A DNA stretch of 64,000 bases from the NCBI RefSeq assembly GCF_003144095.1, contig NZ_NSKH01000024.1:201198-265197 (forward strand). The letters are read 5' to 3'. Positions 7,628 through 61,300 of the stretch are shown in pieces. The translations under genes and the position numbers were made by a program. Each line of letters begins with the position of its first letter. Within the stretch, counting starts at the first letter, position 1. Source of the DNA: Streptomyces sp. ICBB 8177. Lineage in GTDB: Bacteria; Actinomycetota; Actinomycetes; Streptomycetales; Streptomycetaceae. The notes under the pieces are model-generated. The model was given only the letters and a program-made list of their open reading frames with translations. It did no database searches and was not told the origin of the DNA.

Positions 7628-8895
7628 CGGCCCGTCCCTCCGTAGACCACGGCCTCGTCGCTCTCGGTGTCGAGACCGAAGGCCGTGTGGACGGCGCGGA
7701 CCGCCTCGTTGACGTCGTCGGCGCGGGTGACCACCGAGATGCGGATCTCGGAGGTGGAGATCAGCTCGATGTTGACGCCCGCGTTGGACAGCGCCTCGAA
7801 GAACGTCGCGGTGACGCCGGGGTTGGTCTTCATGCCGGCGCCGACCAGCGAGATCTTGGCGATCTGGTCGTCGTAGCGCAGCGAGTCGAAGCCGACCTGG
7901 GGGCGGGTGCGCTCCAGGGCCTGGACCGCCTTGCGGCCGTCGGTCTTCGGCAGGGTGAAGGAGATGTCGGTCAGACCGGTCGAGGCGGCCGACACGTTCT
8001 GCACGACCATGTCGATGTTGATCTGCGCGTCGGCGATCGCGCGGAAGATCGTCGCGGCCTCGCCCGGCTTGTCCGGTACGCCGACGACCGTGACCTTCGC
8101 CTCGGACGTGTCGTGCGCGACCCCCGAAATGATCGCCTGCTCCATCGGGTGGCCCCCTAGCGGTTCGTTGCTGACCCAGGTCCCGCGCAGTCCGGAGAAG
8201 GACGAGCGCACGTGGATCGGGATGTTGTATCGGCGCGCGTATTCCACGCAGCGGTGCAGCAGCACCTTGGATCCGGACGAGGCCAGCTCCAGCATGTCCT
8301 CGAAGGAGATCCAGTCGATCTTGCGGGCCTTCTTCACCACCCGCGGGTCGGCGGTGAAGACGCCGTCGACGTCCGTGTAGATCTCGCACACCTCGGCGTC
8401 GAGCGCGGCGGCCAGCGCCACGGCCGTGGTGTCCGAGCCGCCCCGGCCGAGCGTGGTGATGTCCTTCTTGTCGTGGGACACCCCCTGGAAACCGGCGACG
8501 ATGGCGATGTTGCCCTCGTCCAGCGCGGTGCGGATGCGGCCCGGTGTGACGTCGATGATCCGGGCCTTGTTGTGGACCGAGTCGGTGATGACCCCGGCCT
8601 GGCTCCCGGTGAAGGACTGCGCCTCGTGACCGAGGTTTTTGATCGCCATCGCCAGCAGGGCCATGGAGATCCGCTCTCCGGCGGTCAGCAGCATGTCGAA
8701 CTCGCGTCCGGCAGGGATCGGAGATACCTGCTGGGCGAGATCGATCAACTCGTCCGTCGTGTCACCCATCGCCGACACCACGACGACCACCTGGTGGCCG
8801 CTCTTCTTGGCATCGACGATCCGCTTGGCGACGCGCTTGATGCCCTCGGCATCCGCAACGGATGAGCCGCCGTACTTCTGCACGACAAGGCCCAC
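7624..8895 (-). CDS. ask: Aspartate kinase
   Basis: [12 protein letters not shown]...[16 protein letters not shown]... plus two C-terminal ACT domains. GTG start with a GAGGAG RBS. An internal in-frame ATG with a GGGGG RBS at about 8145 matches the known Ask-beta subunit start. Confidence 0.9.
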
Positions 8896-11347: not shown

Positions 11348-13628
11348 TCACTCGTTGACGATCTCCTCGATCACCGTGGCGCCGAGCTCGCGGACGATCA
11401 GGTCGTGGCCGGTGAGCGCGGTGTCGTCGAGGTCGGGGTCGTCCTCCTCCGGGATGTCGTCCTCGATCGAGACGACCGGGGGCGGCTCCGGCGCGGAGGG
11501 CGCCGCGGAGCGCGACGGCTCGGGCCCGGACGACGGCTGCTGCGGCGGCTGCGGTCCCCGGGGCGGCCCGCTCGGGCCGGACTGCGCCGGGGGCGCGGAC
11601 GGCGCGAAGGAGGCGGAAGGGGCGGCGCCGGCCGGTCCCGCGGCGGACGGGCGCGACGGGCCGGGGAAGCCTCCGCCCTGCGGCCCGGAGGACCCGGACG
11701 GCCCGAAGCCTCCCTGGCCTCCCCCTCCCCCGCTGCCGCCAGACGGGTCGACCAGCGCCTCGATCTTCCACTCGACGTGCAGCAGGTCGTTGACCGCCTG
11801 GCGCAGGACGTCCTCGCTGCCGCCGCTGACGAAGCTGTCGCGGGCACCCGGGTTGGCGAACCCGAGCTGGAGCGTCGTCCCGTCGAACCCGACGACCTGC
11901 GCGTTCTGGCTCAGCAGGATCCAGGTGAAGCGGCGGCGGTTCTTGACCGCTTCGAGGATGTCGGGCCACATCTGGCGCACCCGGGACGGATCGCCCGCGA
12001 CAGCCCCGGCACCGCTCGGGGCAGGCGCCTGCCCGGACGCGGCCGTCGCGGGGGCGGGCGCCTGCGCGGGCGCCGCCGGGGACGACGGCGGCGCGGCCGG
12101 GGACGACGGCGGGGTGGCGGTGGGCCAGGCCCCCGGCGCGGGGCTCGGGGCGCCCCCGGAACCGGGCCGCGCGGCGGTCGGCCAGGCCCCGGGGACCCGG
12201 GCGGCGGAAGCGGCCGGGGCGTCCGCCGACGCCGTTGCGGCGGGAGCCGGAGGAGTGGGAGGAGCGTCGGCCGCCGGGACCGGGGCGGCCGGGGCGGCGG
12301 GCACGGCGGGCGCGGGAGGCGTGGCGGGGGCGGGCACCTGGCCCGGGCCGCCCGGAGCGGGCCGCACCGCCGCCCGGGCCTCCGCGGGGCCGTTCACCGA
12401 ACCGGTCGCCTGCGCGCCGCCGCCCGGCTCGGGCGCGTAACCCGTGGGCGCCGCGAGTCCACCCGCCAGGGCCTGCCGCTCCAGCCGGTCCAGCCGGGCG
12501 GCGACGGCGCGTTCGTCGCCGTAGGCGGCGGGCAGCAGCACGCGGGCGCAGATCAGCTCCAGTTGGAGGCGCGGCGAGGTGGCACCGCGCATCTCGGTCA
12601 GACCGGCGTTGACCAGGTCCGCGGCGCGGCTCAGCTCGGCGGCGCCGAAGACCGAGGCCTGGGCCGCCATCCGCTCGACCACGTCGGCCGGGGCGTCTAT
12701 CAACCCCTTCTCACCCGCGTCCGGGACGGCGGCCAGGATGACCAGGTCACGCAGCCGCTCCAGCAGGTCGGCGACGAAACGGCGCGGGTCGTGGCCGCCC
12801 TCGATGACGCGGTCGACGACCTCGAAGGCCGCCGCGCCGTCACCCGCGGCGAAGGCGTCCACCACGTCGTCCAGCAGCGCGCCGTCGGTGTAGCCGAGCA
12901 GCGCGGTGGCCATCGCGTACGTCACGCCGGACTCGCCCGCGCCGGCGAGCAGCTGGTCCATCACCGACATCGAGTCACGGACCGAGCCCGCACCGGCCCG
13001 GACGACCAGCGGGTACACGCCGTCCTCGACCGCGATGGCCTCCCGGGCGCAGACCTCGGCCAGGTAGTCGCGCAGCGTGCCCGGCGGGACCAGGCGGAAC
13101 GGGTAGTGGTGGGTGCGCGACCGGATCGTGCCGATGACCTTCTCCGGCTCGGTGGTCGCGAAGATGAACTTCAGGTGCTCCGGCGGCTCCTCGACGACCT
13201 TCAGCAGGGCGTTGAAGCCCGCCGAGGTGACCATGTGGGCCTCGTCGATGATGTAGATCTTGTACCGGCTGGACGCGGGCCCGAAGAAGGCCTTCTCCCG
13301 CAGGTCGCGCGCGTCGTCCACGCCGCCGTGCGACGCGGCGTCGATCTCGATGACGTCGATCGAGCCCGGCCCGTTGCGCGCCAGGTCGCGGCAGGAACGG
13401 CACTCGCCGCACGGCGTCGGCGTGGGCCCCTGCTCGCAGTTCAGGCACCGGGCGAGGATCCGCGCGCTGGTCGTCTTGCCGCAGCCGCGCGGACCGCTGA
13501 ACAGGTACGCGTGGTTGACCCGGTTGTTGCGCAGCGCCTGCGACAACGGGTCGGTGACGTGCTCCTGCCCGATGACCTCGGCGAAGGACTCGGGACGGTA
13601 GCGGCGGTACAGAGCGAGAGACACGCTT
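11348..13628 (-). CDS. dnaX: DNA polymerase III subunits gamma/tau
   Basis: VSLALYRRYRPESFAEVIGQEHV...GPRGCGKTTSARILA...C-x2-C-x-C zinc module. Long Pro/Ala-rich tau linker. GTG start chosen at the conserved N-terminus; the ORF track's extra 5' extension is probably not translated. Confidence 0.88.
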
Positions 13629-13767
13629 ACGACGATATCGGGGCCCACCGACAACCGGCGCCGTCCGAGGCGGCCACCCGTCCGGCCCGGGCCCGCTCCC
13701 CGTGCCGGACGCCCTGCCCTCACTCGGACGAGTGGTTGTTTGTATGACCATTGGCGACACGGAGTAA

Positions 13768-16746
<2,979 letters not shown>

Positions 16747-26621: not shown

Positions 26622-27224
26622 ATGACGACCCGGACCATCCCGACGGCGCTGCGGGCCGCCGCGTCCGTAGCCGTCATCGCCTCGGGCGCGCTGCTGCTGA
26701 CCGCGTGCTCGTCGTCCTCGTCCTCCTCCGCGTCGTCGAACGCGTCGGCGTCGGCGTCCTCCTCCTCAGCGGGCGGGCGTCAGCAGATGGCCGCGTACAC
26801 GCAGTGCCTGTCGCAGCACGGTGTCAAGATCACCCGGCCCTCGGGCCGCCCGAGCGCGCGGCCGAGCGGCGGCTTCCGCCACGGTGGCGGTGGCGGCGGC
26901 GGGTTCGGCGGCTTCGGCTTCGGCGGCGGGGCGTCGGCGAACCCGGCGATGCAGAAGGCCGCGCAGGCCTGCGCGAGTCTGCGTCCGCAGTTCAAGGGCG
27001 GCGGCGGCAACAGTGCCTACGCGACGGCGTTCAAGGCGTTCACGGGGTGCCTGAAGGACCACGGCGTCAACCTCCCGTCCGCCTCCTCCGGCACGATGGG
27101 CGGCGGCACGCGCGGCCTCAACACCTCGGACCCGAAGACCGCGGCGGCCTACAAGACCTGCAAGCCCCTCCTCCCCCAGCGGGGCCCCGGCAACCCGACG
27201 GCTAGCGCAACCCCGTCGGCGTAG
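26622..27224 (+). CDS. Lipoprotein (Cys-containing repeats, Gly-rich)
   Basis: Lipobox LLLTAC after a signal peptide. Repeated QCLSQHGV / GCLKDHGV motifs. Confidence 0.6.
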   Translation: MTTRTIPTALRAAASVAVIASGALLLTACSSSSSSSASSNASASASSSSAGGRQQMAAYTQCLSQHGVKITRPSGRPSARPSGGFRHGGGGGGGFGGFGFGGGASANPAMQKAAQACASLRPQFKGGGGNSAYATAFKAFTGCLKDHGVNLPSASSGTMGGGTRGLNTSDPKTAAAYKTCKPLLPQRGPGNPTASATPSA

Positions 27225-27249
27225 CAGCCCGCCCCCTCGCCTTCCGCGA

Positions 27250-27333
27250 ATCAGTTGTCACCCCCTTGTCTCCGGCAACAACCTCAGGTTGACAATTCGT
27301 TGTCTCCGACAAGGGGGTGACAACTGATTCACG
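27250..27333. repeat. Long imperfect inverted repeat (about 25-bp arms) in the convergent intergenic region
   Basis: TGAATCAGTTGTCACCCCCTTGTC ... GACAAGGGGGTGACAACTGATTCA with a 35-nt spacer that has its own internal dyad symmetry. Confidence 0.75.
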
Positions 27334-27344
27334 GGGAACGAGGC

Positions 27345-27885
27345 GTGCCGCCGTCAGCTGCTCCGGATGTGGTGGAGCATCAGCAGGGCGGCGACGGCGT
27401 TGGCCGACCGGATCTCACCGCGGGTCACCAGGTCCGGCACGTCCTTGAGCGGCACCCACTCCCGGCGCTCCGACTCGAAGGCGTCCTCCGGGTCGCCGAC
27501 GTATTCGGCATCCTGGGCCCAGAAGACCTAGTGGCGGGCGTCGGTCAGCCCATGCTGCGGCTCGACCATCATCAACTCCCGCAACGGCCCCGGTCGCCAG
27601 CCCGTCTCCTCCAGCATCTCCCGCGCGGCGGCGTCCGCCGGCTCCTCCCCGTCCTCGACCACGCCGGCGGCCAGTTCGTAGCTCCACGTGCCGGTGATGA
27701 AGCGATGCCGCCACAGCAGGAGGACCTCGTCGGCGTCGTTGACGACGGTCGCCAGAGCCACCGGCCGCTGCCGGATGACGTAGTGGTCCAGGTGGCGGCC
27801 GTCAGGCAGTTCCACGTCAGCGAGGTTCACCCGAAGCCACGGGTTCTCGTACACGGTGTGCTCGCCGAGATTCGTCCACCGCACC
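27345..27885 (-). pseudogene. NUDIX hydrolase interrupted by an in-frame TAG (27528-27530)
   Basis: NUDIX box GVVEDGEEPADAAAREMLEETG upstream of the stop. The reading frame continues with homologous-looking sequence (VFWAQDAEYVGDP...VPLKDVPDLVTRGEIRSANAVAALLML) after the TAG. Confidence 0.65.
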
Positions 27886-27894
27886 GCGCGACCC

Positions 27895-28260
27895 TTAACG
27901 CGCCGACTTCTCGATTGCCTCGAAGATGTCCGCGTCGGTCTCCCTCTGCCACAGCGGGAGTTCTGGCCAGTCCGCCACGTAGCCCGGCTTCGGGTTTTCG
28001 AAGTGCTTGAACATCTGAGCGGTCCAGCAGGTGGCGACGAAGCGGCTCTTCTGCTCGCGGGACAGCCGGTCCGTCCTGGCGTCACTGACCTCGACGAACC
28101 GACGCACCTGCTCGTACACCGCTTGCGCCGCATCGCGTTCCCACTGCGGGGTGTCGTCCCACGGGGTCACGTATCCGGCCTTCGGCTCACCGGGAAAGTG
28201 CCGCCGCACGCCCTCGATCCAGGCCTCCCGGAACAGTCGTGCACCCTCGGTCTGCGACAT
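27895..28260 (-). CDS. Hypothetical protein
   Basis: High GC3. ATG with a GAGGTGG RBS (MSQTEGARLFREAWIEGV...). Directly upstream of, and co-oriented with, the NUDIX gene. Confidence 0.5.
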   Translation of the reverse strand: MSQTEGARLFREAWIEGVRRHFPGEPKAGYVTPWDDTPQWERDAAQAVYEQVRRFVEVSDARTDRLSREQKSRFVATCWTAQMFKHFENPKPGYVADWPELPLWQRETDADIFEAIEKSAR

Positions 28261-28285
28261 GCCCACCTCTTCCGTCACGGTGTCC

Positions 28286-29526
28286 TCAGCGAGGCGATCT
28301 CCGCCTCCAACTCGGCCAATCGCCGGTCCCGTTTGTGACGGGGCCGAACTCGGCGCACAGCTCTCGGAGTCTACGAGTCAGGTAGCCGGAAGACGAGGCG
28401 CGAGCGAGTTCGACGGCCTCCCGGCCATACGACACCGCTTGTTCCAGGTCGCACCGCTTCACGCCGACGGCGCGAGGTCTGTCAACACAGCACCCCTTCT
28501 GCGATATGACTGCCCAGCGGCCAGGGCAGTGTTCCCCAGAGCCAAACTGAGCGTCGTCTCCGCACTTTCCAAACGCTCTAGTCGCACGTACCTGGCACCG
28601 CGCTCCTCCGCGAGACGAGAGCCATCGAACCTGAGCCATCCGCCGTTGCTAACGACCGGAGTGAGGTCCCGGACCTTCTCCGCACGGTCCAACGCGTCTT
28701 CGCAGGCTCGAAGTTCGCCCATACCGGCGTACGCCTCCGCTTGGACCGACGCGACCCAATGACGGGTCGGGAGCGCGCTGTCCCCATGCTCAGCCAGCCT
28801 CTCAGCCACACCAAGCATCTGTGACGCCTGGCCATAGCGGTGCTCTGCCATGTCAACATAGGCATGCCGTACCAAGGCGCATGCCCACAAGTCATAGGCC
28901 CCGGCCTCCCTGCTGAGCGATGCTGCGAGGACGTAGGAGGCCGCGGCGTCGTCATAGCGGTTCGCGTCGAAGGCCACCTCACCGGCCAACTGGAGGAGGT
29001 CTGCCGCAGCGGTCATGAGCGGCGGAATGTTCCCACGGCCAGCGGTCATCGCCTCGTTGACCGCTACGAGTTGGTCGCGGGCGAACCGTGCGTACGGATT
29101 GCTTCGACCTCGCCAGTTGGTAGACCTGCCAGAGATGACTGTTCATCCGGCTGAATTCAGTGGGCGTCGCCCGTCGAACACCCGTAGCGAGGGCTTCGGT
29201 TTCTTCGGCGGGAAGAGCGGCAAGTGCTCCGCTGAGGGCGAGCGAGCGAAGAAACGCGGCGAATCATCTCGTCATGCTCTCCGGCATTCGGGCGAACTTC
29301 GGCTTCGTGCGTGGTTTCTGCCCCGTCTGCTGTTCGGGACGTCGACAGGAGTGCATCGAGTTCTTGGAGGCTGACGTCCAACGCGGCCGCCAAACGCCGT
29401 CGCTGCGGTGGTTGAGGGGCGATCCTCCCGGCCTCCCAGCGCCCGACCGTCGTACGGTCCACGCCGAGTAACTCGGCCAGCTTCTCCTGACTGTAGCCCA
29501 GCACCCTGCGCCTCTTCGCCAATCCC
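28286..29526 (-). pseudogene. XRE-family HTH regulator with C-terminal TPR-like domain, split across three frames (at least two frameshifts)
   Basis: HTH piece 29526-29157 (LGYSQEKLAELLGVDRTTVGRWEAG), middle TPR-like piece 29049-28459, and C-terminal piece 28639-28286, all on the minus strand but in different frames. Confidence 0.55.
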
Positions 29527-30006
29527 ATGGCCGAACCTTCCCACAACGCGAGGCTTTCGCAGACCGTGCGCGGGTCTGCGTCAAGTCTGCCGCACTGATG
29601 CCGTGGTTACCCACGTCTTCGCGCGCTTTCCTGATGCAGCGGAGGATGAGCACGGTGAGCCCGGGAGGAGTTGCCATGGCCACAGGAGATCCCGACCCAG
29701 AAGGCGAGTTGAACAGTTGTTCCCGAAGTCGAGAACGGCTCAGCGAACAGCGAGTCCTCATGACGTACAGAGTCTCTCGTGATTCCGGACGTACTTGGGA
29801 GCAGTCACCCAGGTGCTTGGGGACGACCACCTGCCGATCCTGGACAACCCACGTCGCTATCCACCCTGCGCGTGCCCACGTTGTTCAGGCGTGGCCGACG
29901 GCCCCGGTCGCGCAACGACAGTCTGGCCAGTTGCGGACCTGTAGGAGCGAGCCATCGTCTCCAGCGGGTCCAACCACACCGAAGGATCGAAACCAAAGGA
30001 GAAGCA

Positions 30007-31402: not shown

Positions 31403-32599
31403 TCAGCGGATGTTCACCGGGCCGTCGTCGTCCGAAGTGCCGTCCTGCGGGCGGGTCTTGGCCGTGCCCAGGTAGCGCTGGAGCTGTGCGCCGGGGGCCG
31501 GAGAGGAAGACGCGCCGTCCGCGCCGCTGAGGTTGCGGCGGACCGAGTCCAGGATCGTCAGGCCCTGGCCGACCAGGCCCGCCGCGATCTCGCCCAGGCC
31601 GTCCGCGCCGTTGAGGACGTTGACGTTCGCGCCGGCCAGGCCCGCCGACGCCTCCTTGACGATCTGCGGCAGCTGGTCGATCAGCATGCGGTCGAGCGCG
31701 ACGCGGTCGTGCGAGGCGGCGGCCTCTGCCTGGATCTTCATCCGTTCGGCCTCGGCCAGCGCCAGCACCCGGATGCGCTCGGCCTCCGCCTGCGCGGGCT
31801 TGACCACCTCGGCGACCAGCTGCTGCTGCCGCAACTGGGCCGCGCGCTCTGCCAGTTCGGTCTGCGCCGCCAGCACCTCCTGCTGGGCGTGCGCCTGCGC
31901 CAGCGGTCCGGCCTGCGCGGCCTGCGCCTGGACGCGGTCCACCTCGGCGTTGTACTGCGCCTGCACGACCGCGGTCTGCCGGGCGTACTCGGCCTGGTTG
32001 CGGGCCGCCTCCTGCTGCGCCTCCACCGACTGCTGGGTGGCCTGCGCCTGCGCGATCTGCGCCTGCCGCTGGATGGCCGCCTTGTGCGGGGCGGACATCG
32101 CGTCGATGTAACCGGTGTCCCCGTCGTCGATCGACTGGATCTGCAACGAGTCCACGATCAGGCCGATCTTGGCCATCTCCGCCTTGGACGTCTCCAGCAC
32201 CTCGGTGGCGAGCTTCTGCCGTTCGGTGACGATCTCCTCGACCGTCATCGAGCCGATGATGGCCCGCAGGTGGCCCGCGAAGATGCGGCCGGTCAGGATC
32301 GACATCTGGTCCTGGTCGGACAGGAAGCGCTGACCGGCGTTGACGATGCTCTCGTTGTCGTTGCCGACCTTGAACGCGATCACGGCCTTCACCGTCAGCG
32401 CGATGCCCTGCTTGGTCACGCACTTCTCTGCGACCTCCGCCTCGCACATCGCGAGGGTGAGGAAGCGGACCTTGCGGAACACGGGGAGGACGAACTTGCC
32501 GTGCCCCGTCACCACCCGGAACGGAGCACCCCCCTGGCCCCGCCTGCCCCCCGAGATCAGCATCGCCTCGTCAGGGGCGGGAACGCGGTAACCGAACAT
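31403..32599 (-). CDS. Flotillin-like SPFH/band-7 domain protein
   Basis: SPFH domain (EAEVAEKCVTKQGIALTVKAVIAFKV...) followed by a long Ala/Gln-rich coiled coil. Confidence 0.85.
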   Translation of the reverse strand: MFGYRVPAPDEAMLISGGRRGQGGAPFRVVTGHGKFVLPVFRKVRFLTLAMCEAEVAEKCVTKQGIALTVKAVIAFKVGNDNESIVNAGQRFLSDQDQMSILTGRIFAGHLRAIIGSMTVEEIVTERQKLATEVLETSKAEMAKIGLIVDSLQIQSIDDGDTGYIDAMSAPHKAAIQRQAQIAQAQATQQSVEAQQEAARNQAEYARQTAVVQAQYNAEVDRVQAQAAQAGPLAQAHAQQEVLAAQTELAERAAQLRQQQLVAEVVKPAQAEAERIRVLALAEAERMKIQAEAAASHDRVALDRMLIDQLPQIVKEASAGLAGANVNVLNGADGLGEIAAGLVGQGLTILDSVRRNLSGADGASSSPAPGAQLQRYLGTAKTRPQDGTSDDDGPVNIR

Positions 32600-32613
32600 C
32601 CTTCGTCGTCTCC

Positions 32614-32864
32614 TCAACCAGCGTCGCCGGCGTCACCGGCCAACGCGTCCAACGGATCGGCCCATTCGATGACGTCGACCTGGCGGGTGCCCCGGGACTC
32701 GACCACCAGGACGTTCGCTCCCTTGGGCAGCGGCTCCGCGGACCAGGCGAGGAACGCCTCCGATCCGCCCCGGACCCGCACCAGCACCTCGCCGGGCCCG
32801 TCGGCCCCGCGAGTGCCGATGAGCAGCACCCCCGCGCAACCGACCACAGCCTCGTCCGACGCCA
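32614..32864 (-). CDS. NfeD-like OB-fold protein (flotillin-associated)
   Basis: GEVLVRVRGGSEAFLAWSAEPLPKGANVLVVESRGTRQVDV OB-fold pattern. Immediately upstream of the flotillin gene. Confidence 0.6.
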
Positions 32865-32990
32865 TTGACGGCCATCCCCCATCGTTCCTGGTCCTGGTTC
32901 CGACCTTAGCGCTCCGCGAGATCGACGCCCATGGTGGTGAGGTCACGAGTCGGGGGGCGCCCACCGCCAGCGGCCCGAGCCCGGACGGCC

Positions 32991-49997: not shown

Positions 49998-50579
49998 TCA
50001 GTGCAACTGCGCGGCCGCCGCGCGCAGTTCCTCGAACGCGGCGCGCGTGTGGGGCGCCAGTTCGCCCGGGTCCTCGTCGCGGGCGGGGTCGGCCCAGCGG
50101 GCGTAGCCGAGCTTGAACGCGAGCACGCCCAGCTCCGCGGCCACCTGGGCCGTGGGTTCCGCGACGCCGCGCCGCCTCAGGGCGTCGACCATCGCCGCGG
50201 CCATGCCGATGCTCTTCAGTGCCTCGCGATTGCGCAGTTCCTCGTTCGCCTCGATCGCCGCGCGCAGCAGCGGCCCGAGGTCGCGGTTGAACGACGTCAT
50301 CTCACCCGACGCGCGCTCCAGGCCGGCCGCGACGGCCGTCATCGGCGACGCGTCCGCCGGAGCGTCGGCGATGCCCTCCGCCAGCAGGCGGCTGAGGACC
50401 TCCTGCCCGGCCGTGAGGATCTCCCGCTTGTCCGCGAAGTGGCGGAAGAACGTGCTGCGGGTCAGCCCGGCCCGCTCCGAGATCTGGGCGACCGTCGTGT
50501 CGTCGTAGCCCTGCTCGGCGAACAGGCCGAGCGCCGCCACGACCAGGCGCCGACGGGCATCCGGCTTCCATCTGGGCAT
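49998..50579 (-). CDS. TetR/AcrR-family transcriptional regulator
   Basis: N-terminal HTH TVAQISERAGLTRSTFFRHFADK. Divergent from the SDR gene. Confidence 0.85.
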   Translation of the reverse strand: MPRWKPDARRRLVVAALGLFAEQGYDDTTVAQISERAGLTRSTFFRHFADKREILTAGQEVLSRLLAEGIADAPADASPMTAVAAGLERASGEMTSFNRDLGPLLRAAIEANEELRNREALKSIGMAAAMVDALRRRGVAEPTAQVAAELGVLAFKLGYARWADPARDEDPGELAPHTRAAFEELRAAAAQLH

Positions 50580-50663
50580 ACGACCAGCCTATCCGATGCG
50601 ACATGTGTCCCATCGCGGTGTACGGTGATGAGACACATGTCGCATCAGTATGGGGAGTCCGTC

Positions 50664-53671: not shown

Positions 53672-54113
53672 GCTGTTGTCGAAACCCCCACATGGAATCC
53701 CGGTCTCCCGCCGGGAATCAGGGCTCCCACCTGCTCCGATCCGCGCCCGCCTCTTCGTCATGGCGTGGTCGCGATCCCCCCGGAACGGTGGTTGCTGACC
53801 GCAGCGTAGAACACGCCACGGACAGCGGACACACCGATATGCCACTGGAGCGGCGCCGCTCGTTCTCCCGGTGCGGAACACGGCGGCGAGGCGACGCGGC
53901 AGCGGTGAGGAACCGCCGCTGAAGGGGGAGGAGGAGGTCGAGCTCAGCCAAGGACGAGGGCGGGCGCGGGGGCGAGGGCGGGGGTCACGCAGCAGCGGGG
54001 TACTGGATTGCCCGGCGTCGGACGGGGCTGCGAAGCTCGGCCGCATGTTCTCACGCCGTCATCACCGCACGTCCTCCGCCCAGCCCGCCCGACCCGCCTT
54101 CGAAACCGCCGAA

Positions 54114-54800
54114 TGAGCGCTCCGCTCGGCGAGATCGTCGTGGTGGCCGGGCGGGCCGCGCGGGCGGCGGGCTTCGACGACCTGCGCGACGCGGCGACCC
54201 GCGGTCATCGAGGCCCCGGAGGACGGGCGCGCCCTCTACGACTTCGGCTACGCGTGCATCGAGCGGGGCGTCGGCTACCTCGCGATCCCGGCGCTGCGCG
54301 AGGTCGTGCTGGGCCTGCCGGCGGTGCCCTTCGAACCGGAGCGCGAGGCCACACTCGTCGTGGCCTACGACCTGAAGGAGTTGCTGGAGCCGGAGACGCG
54401 CGACGCGGGCGTTGAGGCGCTGCGGGCGCTCCAGGACCGCACCCCCGGCCAGATCCTCCACGAGCACGCCAGTTGCTGGACGGACACCCCGCCGGTCACC
54501 GCCGACTCGGTGGGCCTGCTGGCGCAGGCGGTCACTCCGCCGTGGGGCGAGCGGCTGCGGCCCCGCCCCGACCGCTCCGGTGTGGACCGGCTTCCGGTCG
54601 ACCCCCGCCCTGAGGCGGAGTTGGCCGCGGAGATCGTCATGGCGAGCGCCGAGTCCGACCCCGGTGACGGCGCCACCCCGCCCGACCCGGACGCGACGTT
54701 CACGGCCTTCGCCGCCGCCGTGGCCGGCACCTGGCTCCAGGGCCCCCGCGCCCGCGTCCACGCTGTGGGCCCGGTGCCCAGCTCCGCTTCAACTGACCGG
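54114..54800 (+). pseudogene. Hypothetical gene with a +1 frameshift near 54200
   Basis: MSAPLGEIVVVAGRAARAAGFDDLRDAATR reads through only if the frame shifts at about 54199-54205 into ...VIEAPEDGRALYDFGYACIERGVGYLAIPALREVVLGLPAVPFEPEREATLVVAYDL... Both pieces have high GC3. Confidence 0.5.
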
Positions 54801-54811
54801 GCCCACCCCGA

Positions 54812-54839
54812 GACGACGAAGGCCCGCACCGGTTTCCCG
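54812..54839. terminator. Hairpin terminator
   Basis: GGCCCGCACCGG-TTTC-CCGGTGCGGGCC perfect 12-bp stem, followed by TTTG. Confidence 0.65.
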
Positions 54840-54861
54840 GTGCGGGCCTTTGCCTGCGGCG

Positions 54862-54953
54862 GATACGGGATGCTGACTCGTGAGGGATCGCCCCCAGCAC
54901 GCTTTCCAACTCTCGTGATGGTGACGGTGTCCGGGGTGGTCACCCGACCAGTG
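54862..54953 (-). other. Degenerate tRNA-Ser-like sequence: 3' half conserved (anticodon loop to acceptor end), 5' half unrelated
   Basis: Reverse complement ...GAGAGTTGGAAAGCGTGCTGGGGGCGATCCCTCACGAGTCAGCATCCCGTATCCGCC aligns to the 3' approximately 55 nt of tRNA-Ser(GGA) at 55741-55831. The acceptor stem cannot form. Confidence 0.6.
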
Positions 54954-55680
54954 TCATGTGCCGCAAGTGCGTCCAGTGAGGCGCACAACACCTCCCACCA
55001 GCCGTCCGACAGCTCCGGGGGCTTCGCTCACGATGGCGCGTCCGACAGGAGCCCCCGGCAGAAGCTCAGTTTCATCGGCCCGCCACGTCACCGACTCGTC
55101 CGTGTCTCGCCAGACCACACACCCGGGCCACGCGGGCTTGGCAATGCCTTCCGGAGGCGCGGCACTGTCCGTGCCGTTCCACCCCTGAGCGGGGATCTTG
55201 TCGAACAAGCGCCGCTCGATCCGTACCCAGGTGTCGCGGACTGTTCCGGCCCCCACGGATCGGTGCTTGCGCACCACCGTGTCCGGGAGCAAGCGCGCTT
55301 GCAAAGACCGCTCGACTCGATCAAGAACCTCGTCAACAGGCTCTACCCGTAGATCAACAGCCTTGCCCGTGGAAACCGGGAGCGTCATGAACGCGACCGT
55401 AGCAGCGGTACAGCGTGAGGTACCCGGCGCCGAGGCACGGGCGGCAATGGCCGGCGAGAAGCGCGCGATGCCGGGTGATCAGCTCCAACACCGGCAACCC
55501 GTCCGGGGGGGCGACCACCTCTCCTCGGCAGATTGCACATCTCTGGTCGGCTTCAGCACAAACGATCTTGGGTGTCTTCTCCGGGCCAGCCATAAACGGC
55601 ACCCTCCCAGAGCGTTCGGCCGGGCGCGGCCGAGTCGGCCGGGCTCCTCCGGCCCCTGGGCACAGCAACTGCAACCCTCA

Positions 55681-55722
55681 ACGTCGAAGGGCCCCACCGC
55701 TCGCGGTGGGGCCCTTCGACGT
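55681..55722 (-). terminator. Perfect 19-bp-stem hairpin immediately 3' of tRNA-Ser(GGA)
   Basis: ACGTCGAAGGGCCCCACCG-CTCG-CGGTGGGGCCCTTCGACGT. Confidence 0.65.
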
Positions 55723-55740
55723 TGTGCCCGGTGAGAGCAC

Positions 55741-55831
55741 TGGCGGAGGATACGAGATTCGAACTCGTGAGGGGTTGCCCCCAACACGCTTTCCAAGCGT
55801 GCGCCCTAGGCCACTAGGCGAATCCTCCGCC
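55741..55831 (-). tRNA. tRNA-Ser (anticodon GGA)
   Basis: Reverse complement GGCGGAGGATTCGCC...CACGC-TTGGAAA-GCGTG...long variable arm...GAGTTCGAATCTC...CTCCGCCA folds as a cloverleaf. Acceptor 7/7, anticodon loop UUGGAAA, genomic CCA. Confidence 0.9.
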
Positions 55832-56395
55832 GCACACATTACAAGACCGCGGGGGGTGGTTGCGAACTCGATCCCGGGGCCGGGGATCGGGTAGGCTGGG
55901 CGCAGCCCCTCACGTGGCGCTATCTCGCTGAACTCCCCCAGGGCCGGAAGGCAGCAAGGGTAGGTGGGCTCTGGCGGGTGCGTGGGGGGTCTTCGCGTCT
56001 TTCGGCGCCTCACGAGCCTGGCGGGCCCTCCCGCGACGGAAGTGCCCGCGGCGACGTGCGCCGGCTCTCCGTCCGGCCACTTGCCGCCGACCCGCGCGGA
56101 GGTGTGACGAAGGCGACACCGTCGTCAGCGTTCCCCCGAGGCAAACGCCGGCGAGCCCCGGCACCTTCCGACTCGGACCACGAAATCCCGTCAGGACCGA
56201 ACCCGTCGCGCCGCCGCGCCCCGTACCTACCATTTCAAGCCATATCCGACGCCTCGGCCGGAGTGTCCCCGCCGCGGTGTCAAGGGCTCTACGGGCGCGT
56301 ACGGGGGCGGAAAGGGGTGCCGAGGGGTCCCCCATCGTGGGCGGGGGCCTTCGGCTGGGCTGCGGCCGCACAGCCTTGGCCGGTAGGCTTTCCGT

Positions 56396-56692
56396 GTGAT
56401 CTTCAAGCGCATCGGCAGCAGTCGGCCGTATCCCGACCACGGCCGTACGAGCACCCGCGAATGGGCGGACGTCGCGCCGCGCCCGGTACGCCTCGACCAA
56501 CTGGTGACCACCAAGGGCCAGCTCGACCTGGAGACACTGCTGGCCGAGGACTCCACGTTCTACGGAGACCTGTTCGCCCACGTCGTGAAGTGGCAGGGCG
56601 ACCTCTATCTGGAGGACGGCCTGCACCGGGCGGTCCGCGCCGCGCTCCAGCAGCGCCAGGTGCTGCACGCCCGCGTGCTGGAGATGGACTGA
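56396..56692 (+). CDS. Conserved hypothetical protein
   Basis: VIFKRIGSSRPYPDHGRTSTREWADVAPRPVRLDQLVTTKGQLDLETLLAEDSTFYGDLFAHVVKWQGDLYLEDGLHRAVRAAL is a coherent globular sequence with high GC3. Confidence 0.5.
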   Translation: MIFKRIGSSRPYPDHGRTSTREWADVAPRPVRLDQLVTTKGQLDLETLLAEDSTFYGDLFAHVVKWQGDLYLEDGLHRAVRAALQQRQVLHARVLEMD

Positions 56693-58607: not shown

Positions 58608-58617
58608 GACGGGCTCA

Positions 58618-58722
58618 CTGCCGCTGGGCCCTCTACCGCTGGGCTTGCTGCCGCTGGGCTCGTTGCCCCTGGGCTCACTACCGCTGGGCTCGTTGCCCCT
58701 GGGCCGCTGCCGCGGGCAGGAC
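58618..58722. repeat. Six tandem 15-nt units (consensus CNCTRCCGCTGGGCT) ending in the palindrome GCTGCCGCGGGCAGG
   Basis: Direct reading. Located immediately after the small ORF. Confidence 0.7.
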
Positions 58723-60171: not shown

Positions 60172-60261
60172 GGTAGCGTGTCCGAGCGGCCTAAGGAGCA
60201 CGCCTCGAAAGCGTGTGAGGGGGCAACTCCTCCGTGGGTTCAAATCCCACCGCTACCGCCA
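60172..60261 (+). tRNA. tRNA-Ser (anticodon CGA)
   Basis: GGTAGCG...CACGC-CTCGAAA-GCGTG...long variable arm...GTGGGTTCAAATCCCAC-CGCTACC-G-CCA. Acceptor 7/7. Confidence 0.9.
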
Positions 60262-61068: not shown

Positions 61069-61300
61069 CACGAGCCGGAGCCGGGCCGGGGCCCCTGACT
61101 ACGCGAGCCGGAGCCGACCGGGGTCCCTGACAACGCGGGCGGACCCCGAGCCGGGGTCCCCTGACAACGCGGGCCGGGGCCCCGAGCCGGGTCCCGAACG
61201 ACGCGGGCACCGCCCTGATCAGGGTCCCCGAGCAGCGCGGGCCGTACCCGAGCCGTACCCCTGACGGCGCGGGCCGACCAACCACCCCGGAGCCCGAACC
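61069..61300. repeat. About seven degenerate tandem repeats of 32-34 nt (CGGGCCGGGGCCCCGAGCCGGGGTCCCCTGACAACG-like)
   Basis: Direct reading. Units are adjacent with no spacers. Confidence 0.7.

What the first reader, a model, noticed from the sequence alone, without database searches (positions are those of the whole stretch)
54862..55831. tRNA-Ser(GGA) with a partial 3'-half direct repeat 0.9 kb away: probable att-site remnant of a decayed integrative element
The intact tRNA-Ser (55741-55831, minus strand) and a second minus-strand sequence at 54862-54953 share about 55 nt covering the anticodon loop, variable arm, T-arm and acceptor 3' end (TTGGAAAGCGTG.TGGGGGC.A.CCCTCACGAGT...GTATCC.GCC). 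The 5' halves are unrelated and the second copy cannot form an acceptor stem. A conserved 3' tRNA half as a direct repeat is the signature left by site-specific integration of actinomycete integrative elements (established knowledge). The 0.9 kb between the repeats holds only two unrecognisable small ORFs, so most of the element appears to have been deleted. Each tRNA-like copy is followed by its own strong hairpin terminator. A frameshifted gene lies just beyond the partial copy.
Basis: partly seen in the sequence, partly recalled or inferred. Interest (0 to 1): 0.55.

Follow-up and report, generated by a model that had tools for sequence, protein, structure and literature searches.

The report
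Leftover scar of a mobile element
A serine tRNA gene is followed 0.9 kb away by a decayed copy of its own second half, which is the scar left by a mobile DNA element that once inserted here and was later almost entirely deleted; this is a common and well-understood kind of genomic relic.

Summary
tRNA-Ser(GGA) lies at 55741-55828 (-). A 54-nt direct repeat of its 3' part lies at 54856-54909 (46/54 identical; simulated sequence never exceeded 32/54). The repeat starts exactly at the anticodon loop. Partial copies in three related genomes and the attP of the integrative plasmid pCM32 start at the same position.

Related genomes with this local arrangement (Streptantibioticus and allies) carry a ~12-kb integrative mobilisable element at this tRNA, with a tyrosine integrase, excisionase, DUF3631, DUF2637, NikA/MobC and a relaxase. 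One relative has a 9-kb island flanked by perfect 54-nt repeats. None of about 95 related loci has tandem tRNA-Ser(GGA) genes.

In the window no core element gene survives. What remains:
- about 105 nt of element-arm sequence after the tRNA, including a GGTTGCAGTT motif found in the fetched loci only at this site;
- about 260 nt with no homologue;
- a frameshifted gene fragment cut at codon 159 of 246, within 5 nt of the repeat edge;
- the decayed repeat with its own hairpin.

The flank of the partial copy resembles the tRNA flank of the closest relative, which has no integrase at this site, so it is probably the displaced native 3' end (attR).

The feature is an ordinary relic of low interest.

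The parts
55741..55828 (-). Intact tRNA-Ser(GGA). It acts as attL: the 5' part is chromosomal and the 3' 54 nt are the identity segment.
   Evidence: ARAGORN. Rfam RF00005, 53.5 bits. 98.9-100% identical to the tRNA-Ser(GGA) of the 13 related loci that carry it.
55743..55796 (-). Copy 1 of the 54-nt direct repeat (anticodon loop, variable arm, T-arm, 3' acceptor strand).
   Evidence: the repeat finder family D4; aligned.
55679..55740 (-). Small spacer hairpin plus a 22-bp perfect hairpin ('type E' flank) after the tRNA, following an encoded CCA.
   Evidence: Inverted repeat I18, 22 nt, 100%. Fold -52.3 kcal/mol, z -7.9. 87-93% identical to the flank in the element-bearing relatives L089/L090, L045 and L032.
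55634..55678 (-). Remnant of the element's arm next to the tRNA (P' arm). It holds one exact GGTTGCAGTT at 55667-55676.
   Evidence: This is the only exact match in the window. In 1.87 Mb of fetched loci the exact 10-mer occurs only just after the tRNA-Ser(GGA) terminator or a partial copy. Four element-bearing genomes (L087, L088/L100, L089/L101, L090/L102) have it twice, 12 nt apart; L045 has it once, and L092 has one exact copy plus a one-mismatch second copy. Homology to the L088 element arm runs to 55634.
55409..55633 (.). Filler with no recognisable origin.
   Evidence: No nucleotide match in any fetched locus. ORF 55354-55674 has 0 hits among 1.84 billion representatives and none in Pfam or NCBIfam. 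Codon-position GC is flat.
54911..55388 (-). Cargo pseudogene: the 5' 159 codons of a ~246-aa hypothetical protein family, frameshifted near 55017-55027 and truncated within 5 nt of the repeat edge.
   Evidence: 38 homologues, 71-73% identity, no Pfam domain. tblastn places aa 1-124 in frame -3 and aa 125-159 in frame -1. Junction sequence. Intact copies lie in accessory WhiJ-like and restriction-modification neighbourhoods. GC3 is only ~0.76.
54856..54909 (-). Copy 2 of the repeat: a decayed 3' half of tRNA-Ser(GGA), most likely the displaced native end (attR).
   Evidence: 46/54 identical, against at most 32/54 in simulations. T-loop TTCGAAT has become TCAGCAT and the acceptor strand has one mismatch. 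It ends CCGCA with no encoded CCA, like the tRNA flank of L091, L087 and L092.
54813..54855 (-). Hairpin directly after the partial copy; bidirectional with the convergent pseudogene.
   Evidence: Fold -40 kcal/mol, z -6.2. Resembles the 'type F' flank of L091 and L092 and the L030 terminator (same loop CCGGGAAACCGG, differences on both arms of the stem).
54045..54797 (+). Disrupted TPR-like gene that converges on the partial copy. It is the left flank of the scar and is shared with L091.
   Evidence: About 90% nt identity to L091 2497-3921, with ~0.5-kb and ~70-nt gaps. In-frame stop, frame changes and a 1-nt deletion that removes the stop codon.
55901..55997 (+). SRP RNA (ffs), divergent from the tRNA. 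It marks the conserved upstream side of attB.
   Evidence: Rfam RF00169, 60.8 bits. Adjacent to tRNA-Ser(GGA) in all relatives that show the tRNA.

Best explanation
This is the att scar of a tRNA-Ser(GGA)-specific integrative element. A tyrosine-integrase element of the family still present at this tRNA in Streptantibioticus and Streptomyces relatives recombined its attP with the tRNA gene at or near the anticodon loop. The element supplied a new 3' half, an encoded CCA, a hairpin terminator and its arm sequence, so the tRNA stayed intact (attL). The original 3' half and its own terminator were pushed to the far end of the element (attR). Later, deletion removed the whole backbone (integrase, excisionase, replication and relaxase genes) and the element arm next to attR. 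About 0.77 kb survives: ~105 nt of element arm, ~225 nt of unknown filler and a broken cargo gene fragment that now abuts the crossover point. The displaced tRNA half, no longer under selection, picked up 8 substitutions in 54 nt and cannot form a tRNA. The scar now has no function of its own; only the tRNA and the two hairpins are likely to act.

Shown: the repeat, its boundary, the element-arm homology, the absence of core genes, and the presence of full elements in relatives.
Inferred: which copy is native, the order of events, and that the last deletion used the integrase cleavage site.
For: - The repeat is real and far beyond chance.
- Its left edge is exactly at TTGGAAA of the anticodon loop. 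The partial copies of L045, L074 and L092 and the pCM32 attP share that edge.
- pCM32 has its integrase gene ~100 nt from that site. Its int plus attP are reported to give site-specific integration (PMC12002714, citing Chen et al. 2015).
- The integrases of L100, L087, L032 and pCM32 form one family, 47-83% identical.
- L087-L090 and L100-L102 carry int, xis (HTH_17), HTH_3, DUF3631, DUF2637, NikA/MobC and a relaxase downstream of this tRNA. L032 has a convergent integrase right after the terminator.
- L092 has a 9-kb island between perfect 54-nt repeats.
- The DNA after the window's tRNA matches the element-side flank of these relatives down to 55634-55667. It includes GGTTGCAGTT, which is site-specific in 1.87 Mb of fetched loci.
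- The partial copy's flank (CCGCA, no CCA, type-F-like hairpin) resembles the tRNA flank of L091, the closest relative, where no integrase is seen within the 9 kb downstream of the tRNA.
- The intervening gene fragment belongs to a sporadic accessory family and has low GC3.
- No tandem tRNA-Ser(GGA) occurs in any of about 95 related loci.
- tRNA-targeted integration that leaves direct repeats, remnants between repeats and several elements stacked at one tRNA are described for Streptomyces (PMC2440964, PMC9513070).
Against: - No integrase or other core gene fragment survives in the window (tblastn, nothing at E <= 0.01). The link to the element family therefore rests on ~105 nt of arm homology and on the att boundary.
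- Flank type is not a clean marker of origin. L087 carries the element with a type-F flank, and L029, L076 and L082 have a type-E flank without an integrase.
- No relative has the window's exact attR junction. The closest relative, L091, has neither a repeat nor a hairpin after the shared TPR-like gene.
- The element-bearing relatives L100-L102 and L032 show no attR within reach.
- The canonical element arm seen next to attR in L092 and L074 (CGAACCCCCnGGCGAACA) is absent from the window.
Confidence: 0.8

Rival explanations
1. The event is the same, but the origins of the two copies are swapped. The intact tRNA with its type-E flank would be wholly native, and the decayed copy with its hairpin would come from the element's attP. 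This could arise from a crossover at the far 3' end of a long identity segment, or from a stacked older element.
For: The type-E flank is widespread and also follows the tRNA in genomes without an adjacent integrase (L029, L076, L082) and at the attR-like partial copies of L045 and L074. The partial copy shares ATCCCGT and GCAGG with the pCM32 attP.
Against: The element-specific GGTTGCAGTT motif and the homology to the L088 arm lie next to the intact tRNA, not next to the partial copy. The partial copy's flank resembles that of L091, the closest relative, which shows no integrase at this site. An attP half with a broken T-loop could not have rebuilt a working tRNA.
Confidence: 0.1
2. An element integrated at a secondary (pseudo-attB) site inside the 246-aa cargo-type gene, which lay downstream of an untouched tRNA. 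The partial copy would then be the attP-derived left junction, and the DNA to its left would be the remains of that element.
For: The gene fragment ends within 5 nt of the crossover boundary. The gene's 3' part is nowhere in the window.
Against: No integrase or other element gene lies to the left. The left neighbour is shared with L091. Intact homologues show no convincing core-like sequence at codon 159. This reading also does not explain the element-arm sequence next to the tRNA.
Confidence: 0.05
3. A tandem duplication of the tRNA gene followed by decay and loss of the 5' half of one copy, with no mobile element involved.
For: A direct repeat of tRNA sequence plus a hairpin could in principle arise by duplication.
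Against: None of about 95 related loci has tandem tRNA-Ser(GGA) genes. The boundary matches the att boundary of four independent elements or attP sites. Foreign cargo and element-arm sequence lie between the copies.
Confidence: 0.03
4. A chance similarity between GC-rich sequences.
For: None beyond the high G+C content of the window.
Against: 46/54 matches against a maximum of 32/54 in 200 simulations. BLAST E = 1e-8.
Confidence: 0.01

Closest known systems
Integrated tRNA-targeting elements of actinomycetes and their remnants (AICEs such as pSAM2, SLP1 and pMEA300; defective AICE/ICE remnants between direct repeats at tRNA sites where several elements stack up)
   Same: Tyrosine-integrase recombination with the 3' end of a tRNA gene keeps the tRNA intact and leaves a direct repeat of the tRNA 3' part. 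Remnants that lack transfer genes between repeats, and several elements at one tRNA, are described (PMC2440964, PMC9513070).
   Different: Here nothing of the backbone survives. Only 0.77 kb lies between the repeats and the distal repeat is 85% identical rather than near-perfect. The full-length relatives carry a relaxase and NikA/MobC rather than the TraB/RepSA set of classical AICEs.
pCM32 of Saccharopolyspora endophytica (14.6-kb integrative plasmid, NZ_KM260754)
   Same: Its attP matches the same 3' half of tRNA-Ser(GGA) and starts at the anticodon loop. A hairpin follows, then two short direct repeats, then the end of a convergent integrase gene. Its integrase is 47-50% identical to those at this tRNA in Streptantibioticus and Streptomyces.
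   Different: It comes from a different genus and has a different backbone (Zot-like NTPase, primase-polymerase). It is an intact, active element, whereas the window holds only a scar.
The ~12-kb element at tRNA-Ser(GGA) in Streptantibioticus parmotrematis and S. ferralitis (loci L088/L100, L089/L101)
   Same: Same tRNA, same local arrangement (tRNA divergent from ffs, next to the vapB-like gene), same type-E flank and same GGTTGCAGTT arm motif. Homology to the window extends ~105 nt past the tRNA.
   Different: These carry cargo, int, xis, DUF3631, DUF2637, NikA/MobC and a relaxase. The window has none of these. They show no detectable attR within 20 kb, whereas the window has one.
CIMEs (cis-mobilisable elements: att-flanked remnants of streptococcal ICEs that lack recombination and transfer genes; from my own knowledge, not checked in a paper here)
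   Same: A short segment flanked by attL and attR with no integrase or transfer genes.
   Different: The window's attR is decayed and lacks the canonical element arm, so mobilisation in trans is doubtful and untested.

Membership tests
att scar of a tRNA-targeting tyrosine-integrase element | Direct repeat made of the 3' part of a tRNA gene, downstream of the intact tRNA and in the same orientation | tested here: met
   54 nt, 46/54, both on the minus strand, 887 nt apart; far beyond chance.
att scar of a tRNA-targeting tyrosine-integrase element | The repeat boundary coincides with the att boundary used by intact elements of the family | tested here: met
   The left edge at TTGGAAA is shared with the L045, L074 and L092 partial copies and the pCM32 attP.
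att scar of a tRNA-targeting tyrosine-integrase element | Element-derived arm sequence next to one of the repeats | tested here: met
   Homology to the L088 and L089 element flank down to 55634-55667, and an exact GGTTGCAGTT at 55667-55676.
att scar of a tRNA-targeting tyrosine-integrase element | Related genomes carry a full-length element (integrase, excisionase, replication or transfer genes) at the same tRNA | tested here: met
   L087-L090 and L100-L102; L032 and L045.
att scar of a tRNA-targeting tyrosine-integrase element | A related genome shows the empty site (tRNA followed directly by the native flank) | tested here: inconclusive
   L091 has no integrase and no repeat within the 9 kb downstream of the tRNA, but 5.3 kb of other genes separate the tRNA from the shared TPR-like gene. 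The window's own species is not in the collection.
Functional integrative element (AICE / ICE / IME) | Integrase gene within the repeat-bounded segment | tested here: not met
   tblastn with four integrases and all other core proteins finds nothing in the window at E <= 0.01. Pfam finds nothing in the ORFs between the repeats.
Classical AICE (pSAM2/SLP1 type) | TraB/FtsK-like transfer protein and a Rep protein in the element | tested here: not met
   The full-length relatives encode a relaxase (PF03432) and NikA/MobC. No FtsK/TraB family appears in the gene tables. This fits an integrative mobilisable element better.
CIME-like cis-mobilisable remnant | Both att sites intact and recombinable by a related integrase | not testable with these tools
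   attR is 85% identical and lacks the canonical arm seen in L092 and L074. Activity would need an experiment.
Tandem tRNA gene duplication | Relatives with two full tRNA-Ser(GGA) genes side by side | tested here: not met
   ARAGORN on all fetched loci found none.

The most novel reading that the evidence does not exclude
The last deletion may not have been random. It could have been made by the element's integrase acting on the attR core and a secondary site inside the cargo gene, which would explain why the gene fragment ends within 5 nt of the crossover point and why the canonical element arm is gone. The resulting 0.9-kb att-flanked unit might then be a CIME-like passenger that incoming elements of the same family could still recognise or stack next to.
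Probability: 0.12. Interest if true: 0.3.

Novelty: new member of a known kind. Interest (0 to 1): 0.15.

Why it matters
The finding matters little beyond annotation.

- It marks tRNA-Ser(GGA), next to ffs, as an integration hot spot in Streptomycetaceae.
- It shows that this genome once hosted an element of a family that carries defence-type cargo in its relatives (Mrr/nSTAND, MC2).
- It gives a dated example of how such elements decay to a scar.
- It helps draw the boundary between core and accessory DNA in this region.
- It identifies pCM32-type integrases as candidates for site-specific integration tools that target tRNA-Ser in these genera.

Tried and rejected
- Searched the whole window for a third copy of the repeat, in case of a larger island bounded further away. 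None found.
- Annotated 17-54 kb, between the scar and the conserved genes, looking for integrase or transfer genes. Only ordinary accessory genes turned up: two-component systems, MacB, GntR, an FMN dehydrogenase, a ferric reductase, an erythromycin-esterase-like gene, TetR and MerR.
- Looked for the far end (attR) of the full elements in L100-L102 and L032, using exact words of 12 nt or more and ungapped 54-nt scoring. None found within reach.
- Looked for inverted repeats at the two breakpoints of the ~42-kb inversion. None found.
- Tried to find the window's own genome or a sister strain by exact protein look-up (TetR, Dabb). Not on record.
- Followed the TPR-like gene's homologues to see whether they mark a conserved native flank. 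Their contexts elsewhere are unrelated to the tRNA.
- Checked intact homologues of the cargo gene for a core-like secondary site at codon 159. Only a CACG(C) word is shared, which is not convincing.
- Weak similarity between the sequence upstream of the partial copy and the pCM32 arm was judged not significant.
- The paper that characterised pCM32 (Chen et al. 2015) is not held.

Full report
**What is in the sequence**

ARAGORN calls tRNA-Ser(GGA) at 55741-55828 on the minus strand and Rfam agrees (53.5 bits). Neither tool calls a tRNA 0.9 kb downstream. A repeat search finds one direct repeat: 54856-54909 against 55743-55796, 54 nt, ungapped, 46/54 identical. In 200 first-order Markov simulations of the window the best match to this 54-mer was 32/54, so chance is excluded. 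There is no third copy in the window.

The repeat covers the anticodon loop, variable arm, T-arm and 3' acceptor strand. The sequence 5' of it is unrelated to the tRNA. The T-loop reads TCAGCAT instead of TTCGAAT, and the stretch folds no better than shuffles (z +1.3). Each copy is followed by a strong hairpin: -52 kcal/mol (z -7.9) after the tRNA and -40 kcal/mol (z -6.2) after the partial copy. Neither has a T-tract, so the consensus terminator scan misses them. SRP RNA (ffs) lies divergently at 55901-55997, and a VapB-like gene follows at 56396-56692.

**Between and beside the repeats**

The stretch 54911-55388 (-) is the 5' 159 codons of a ~246-aa hypothetical protein family with no Pfam domain.
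- Residues 1-124 are in one frame and 125-159 in another.
- The gene stops within 5 nt of the first base of the repeat.
- Intact copies sit in accessory neighbourhoods next to WhiJ-like clusters and a type I restriction system, with no tRNA nearby.
- Its GC3 is ~0.76, against more than 0.9 for neighbouring genes.

The other ORF (55354-55674) has no homologue among 1.84 billion representatives and no family match. I treat it as non-coding.

To the left, 54045-54797 (+) is a multiply disrupted copy of a 455-aa TPR-like protein. It has an in-frame stop, frame changes, a ~0.5-kb internal gap and a 1-nt deletion that removes the stop codon.

**Related genomes**

A scan with the VapB-like protein returned 80 Streptomycetaceae loci. 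An exact-protein look-up then added closer relatives, L087-L096. These include Streptantibioticus parmotrematis (L088), S. ferralitis (L089) and Streptomyces sp. PTM05 (L091), named. The closest of them (L088, L091, L093) are about 90-91% identical to the window in the right flank; L087, L089, L090 and L092 are nearer 78-81%.

In this clade the tRNA has the same place and orientation as in the window.
- L087-L090, extended as L100-L102, carry downstream of the tRNA a terminator, 1-4 kb of cargo, a convergent tyrosine integrase, an HTH_17 excisionase, HTH_3, DUF3631, DUF2637, NikA/MobC and a relaxase. This is an integrative mobilisable element of about 12 kb.
- L032 (S. apricus) has a convergent integrase and DUF3631 directly after the terminator.
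- L045 has an integrase, an Mrr-nSTAND3 gene and then a 56-nt partial tRNA copy.
- L074 has a 56-nt partial copy.
- L092 has a 9-kb island without an integrase, between perfect 54-nt repeats.

No locus has tandem tRNA-Ser(GGA) genes.

**The att boundary and the integrase family**

In the window's partial copy, in the partial copies of L045, L074 and L092, and in the attP of plasmid pCM32 (Saccharopolyspora endophytica), homology to the tRNA begins at the same base, the first T of TTGGAAA in the anticodon loop.

pCM32 has its integrase gene ~100 nt from this site. Its int plus attP are reported to mediate site-specific integration (PMC12002714, citing Chen et al. 2015). The integrases of L100, L087, L032 and pCM32 are 47-83% identical. 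One integrase family therefore uses this 3' half of tRNA-Ser(GGA), and the window's repeat has that family's boundary.

**Which copy is native**

The DNA after the window's intact tRNA has an encoded CCA, a small hairpin, the 22-bp hairpin and then GGTTGCAGTT. It matches the element-side flank of L088-L090 down to 55634-55667.

The exact 10-mer GGTTGCAGTT occurs in 1.87 Mb of fetched loci only just after this tRNA's terminator or after a partial copy. In the element-bearing genomes L087-L090 it appears as two exact copies 12 nt apart. The window has one exact copy, at that position. pCM32 has an analogous pair (GTCTCAGT twice) at the same place. I read these as candidate arm-type integrase sites; this is an inference.

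The partial copy instead ends CCGCA with no CCA, followed by a hairpin of the type seen after the tRNA in L091. L091 is the closest relative and shows no integrase at this site. The same flank type occurs in L087 and L092. This fits the classical outcome: an attL built from the native 5' part plus the element's 3' part and arm, and an attR holding the displaced native 3' part with its own terminator.

The marker is not clean. L087 combines the element with the second flank type. L029, L076 and L082 have the first flank type without an integrase. I therefore give the reverse assignment about 10%.

**What was lost**

tblastn with every core protein of the element family finds nothing in the window at E <= 0.01. 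The canonical element arm next to attR in L092 and L074 (CGAACCCCCnGGCGAACA before TTGGAAA) is also absent. The broken cargo gene stands in its place.

Because the gene fragment ends at the family's crossover boundary, the final deletion may have used the integrase cleavage site. Intact homologues show no convincing core-like site at that codon, so this remains a minority reading.

tRNA-Ser(GGA) is 98.9-100% identical across the 13 related loci that carry it, and the 54-nt segment is 100% identical in all of them. The 8 differences in the partial copy are therefore best read as decay after displacement. That makes the event old compared with the perfect repeats seen in L045, L074 and L092.

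**Wider context**

In six more distant Streptomyces genomes the order is dnaX, ffs, tRNA-Ser(GGA), 3-9 kb of variable genes, then the vapB-like gene. In the window and its clade, the ffs-tRNA pair is inverted and sits next to the vapB-like gene. dnaX lies 42 kb away at 11348-14128. No inverted repeats mark the breakpoints.

The 37 kb between the scar and the conserved genes holds ordinary accessory genes and almost no nucleotide match in the relatives: apart from the tRNA-derived partial copy itself, only one 1.36-kb stretch (31529-32882, 85% identical to L068). The whole downstream side of this tRNA is a variable region.

**Comparison with what is known**

Integration of actinomycete elements into the 3' end of tRNA genes, the direct repeats it leaves, element remnants, and several elements stacked at one tRNA are all described (PMC2440964, PMC9513070). 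The window adds one more case, an extreme one in which only the att sites, a piece of arm and a cargo fragment remain.

The relatives' element is of the relaxase-bearing, mobilisable kind and not a classical TraB-type AICE.

**Verdict**

The feature is real, already explained by known biology, and of low interest (0.15).

Noticed in passing
window 13,700-56,350 (dnaX 11348-14128 -, ffs 55901-55997 +): Six more distant Streptomyces genomes have dnaX, ffs and tRNA-Ser(GGA) next to each other. In the window the segment holding ffs and the tRNA is inverted, so ffs lies 42 kb from dnaX. The same local arrangement (tRNA, ffs, vapB-like gene) is seen in L087-L092, so the inversion is clade-wide. No inverted repeats were found at the breakpoints. 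The order of the terpene synthase and HhH-GPD genes does not fit a single simple inversion.
   Followed up: partly
window 60172-60261 (tRNA-Ser CGA); L012, L020 and L046 around 13.8-15.5 kb: Integrases 61-64% identical to the tRNA-Ser(GGA) family, each with an excisionase, sit convergently right after tRNA-Ser(CGA) in three Kitasatospora/Streptomyces relatives. The distance from that tRNA to the Dabb gene varies by several kb among relatives. This makes it a second hot spot used by a sister integrase lineage. The window has no partial copy there.
   Followed up: partly
L100-L102 (1,700-14,000) and L032 (3,551-10,000): The full-length elements at tRNA-Ser(GGA) in these relatives have no detectable second att copy within 20 kb (no shared word of 12 nt or more, no ungapped match above 33/54). 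They may be locked in place, or may be larger than they appear.
   Followed up: partly
window 55667-55676; L087-L090, L092 and L045 just after the tRNA terminator; pCM32 (L001) near 7,900: Two copies of GGTTGCAGTT, 12 nt apart, follow the terminator in element-bearing genomes. pCM32 has GTCTCAGT twice at the same place. These are candidate arm-type integrase binding sites. The window keeps one copy.
   Followed up: partly
window 54045-54797 (+): A TPR-like gene is multiply disrupted relative to the 455-aa protein of Streptomyces sp. PTM05: an in-frame stop, frame changes, a ~0.5-kb internal gap and loss of the stop codon.
   Followed up: yes
window 13768-16746 (+): A long ORF with two Terpene_syn_C_2 domains (geosmin-synthase-like architecture) lies directly beside dnaX at one inversion breakpoint.
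   Followed up: no
window 27,000-30,000: A patch of lower G+C (0.64-0.69 against ~0.73) with weak coding signal. It contains a NUDIX-domain ORF and several ORFs with no family match. It may be foreign or decaying DNA.
   Followed up: no
window 58611-58715 and 61082-61244: Two tandem repeat arrays: 15-nt units (GGGCTCnnTGCCGCT) and ~33-nt units (CCGGGGTCCCTGACAACGCGGGC...). They probably encode repetitive peptide stretches or lie in a spacer.
   Followed up: no
window 50595-50646: A 25-nt-arm palindrome (88% complementary, 2-nt loop) just upstream of the TetR-family gene at 49998-50588. It is probably the operator.
   Followed up: no
L045 3765-3850: A ~23-nt stretch matching the 3' end of the L032-type integrase gene lies about 95 nt upstream of the partial tRNA copy, on the opposite side from where the integrase gene sits in L032. 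This is unexplained; it may be a trace of stacked elements.
   Followed up: no
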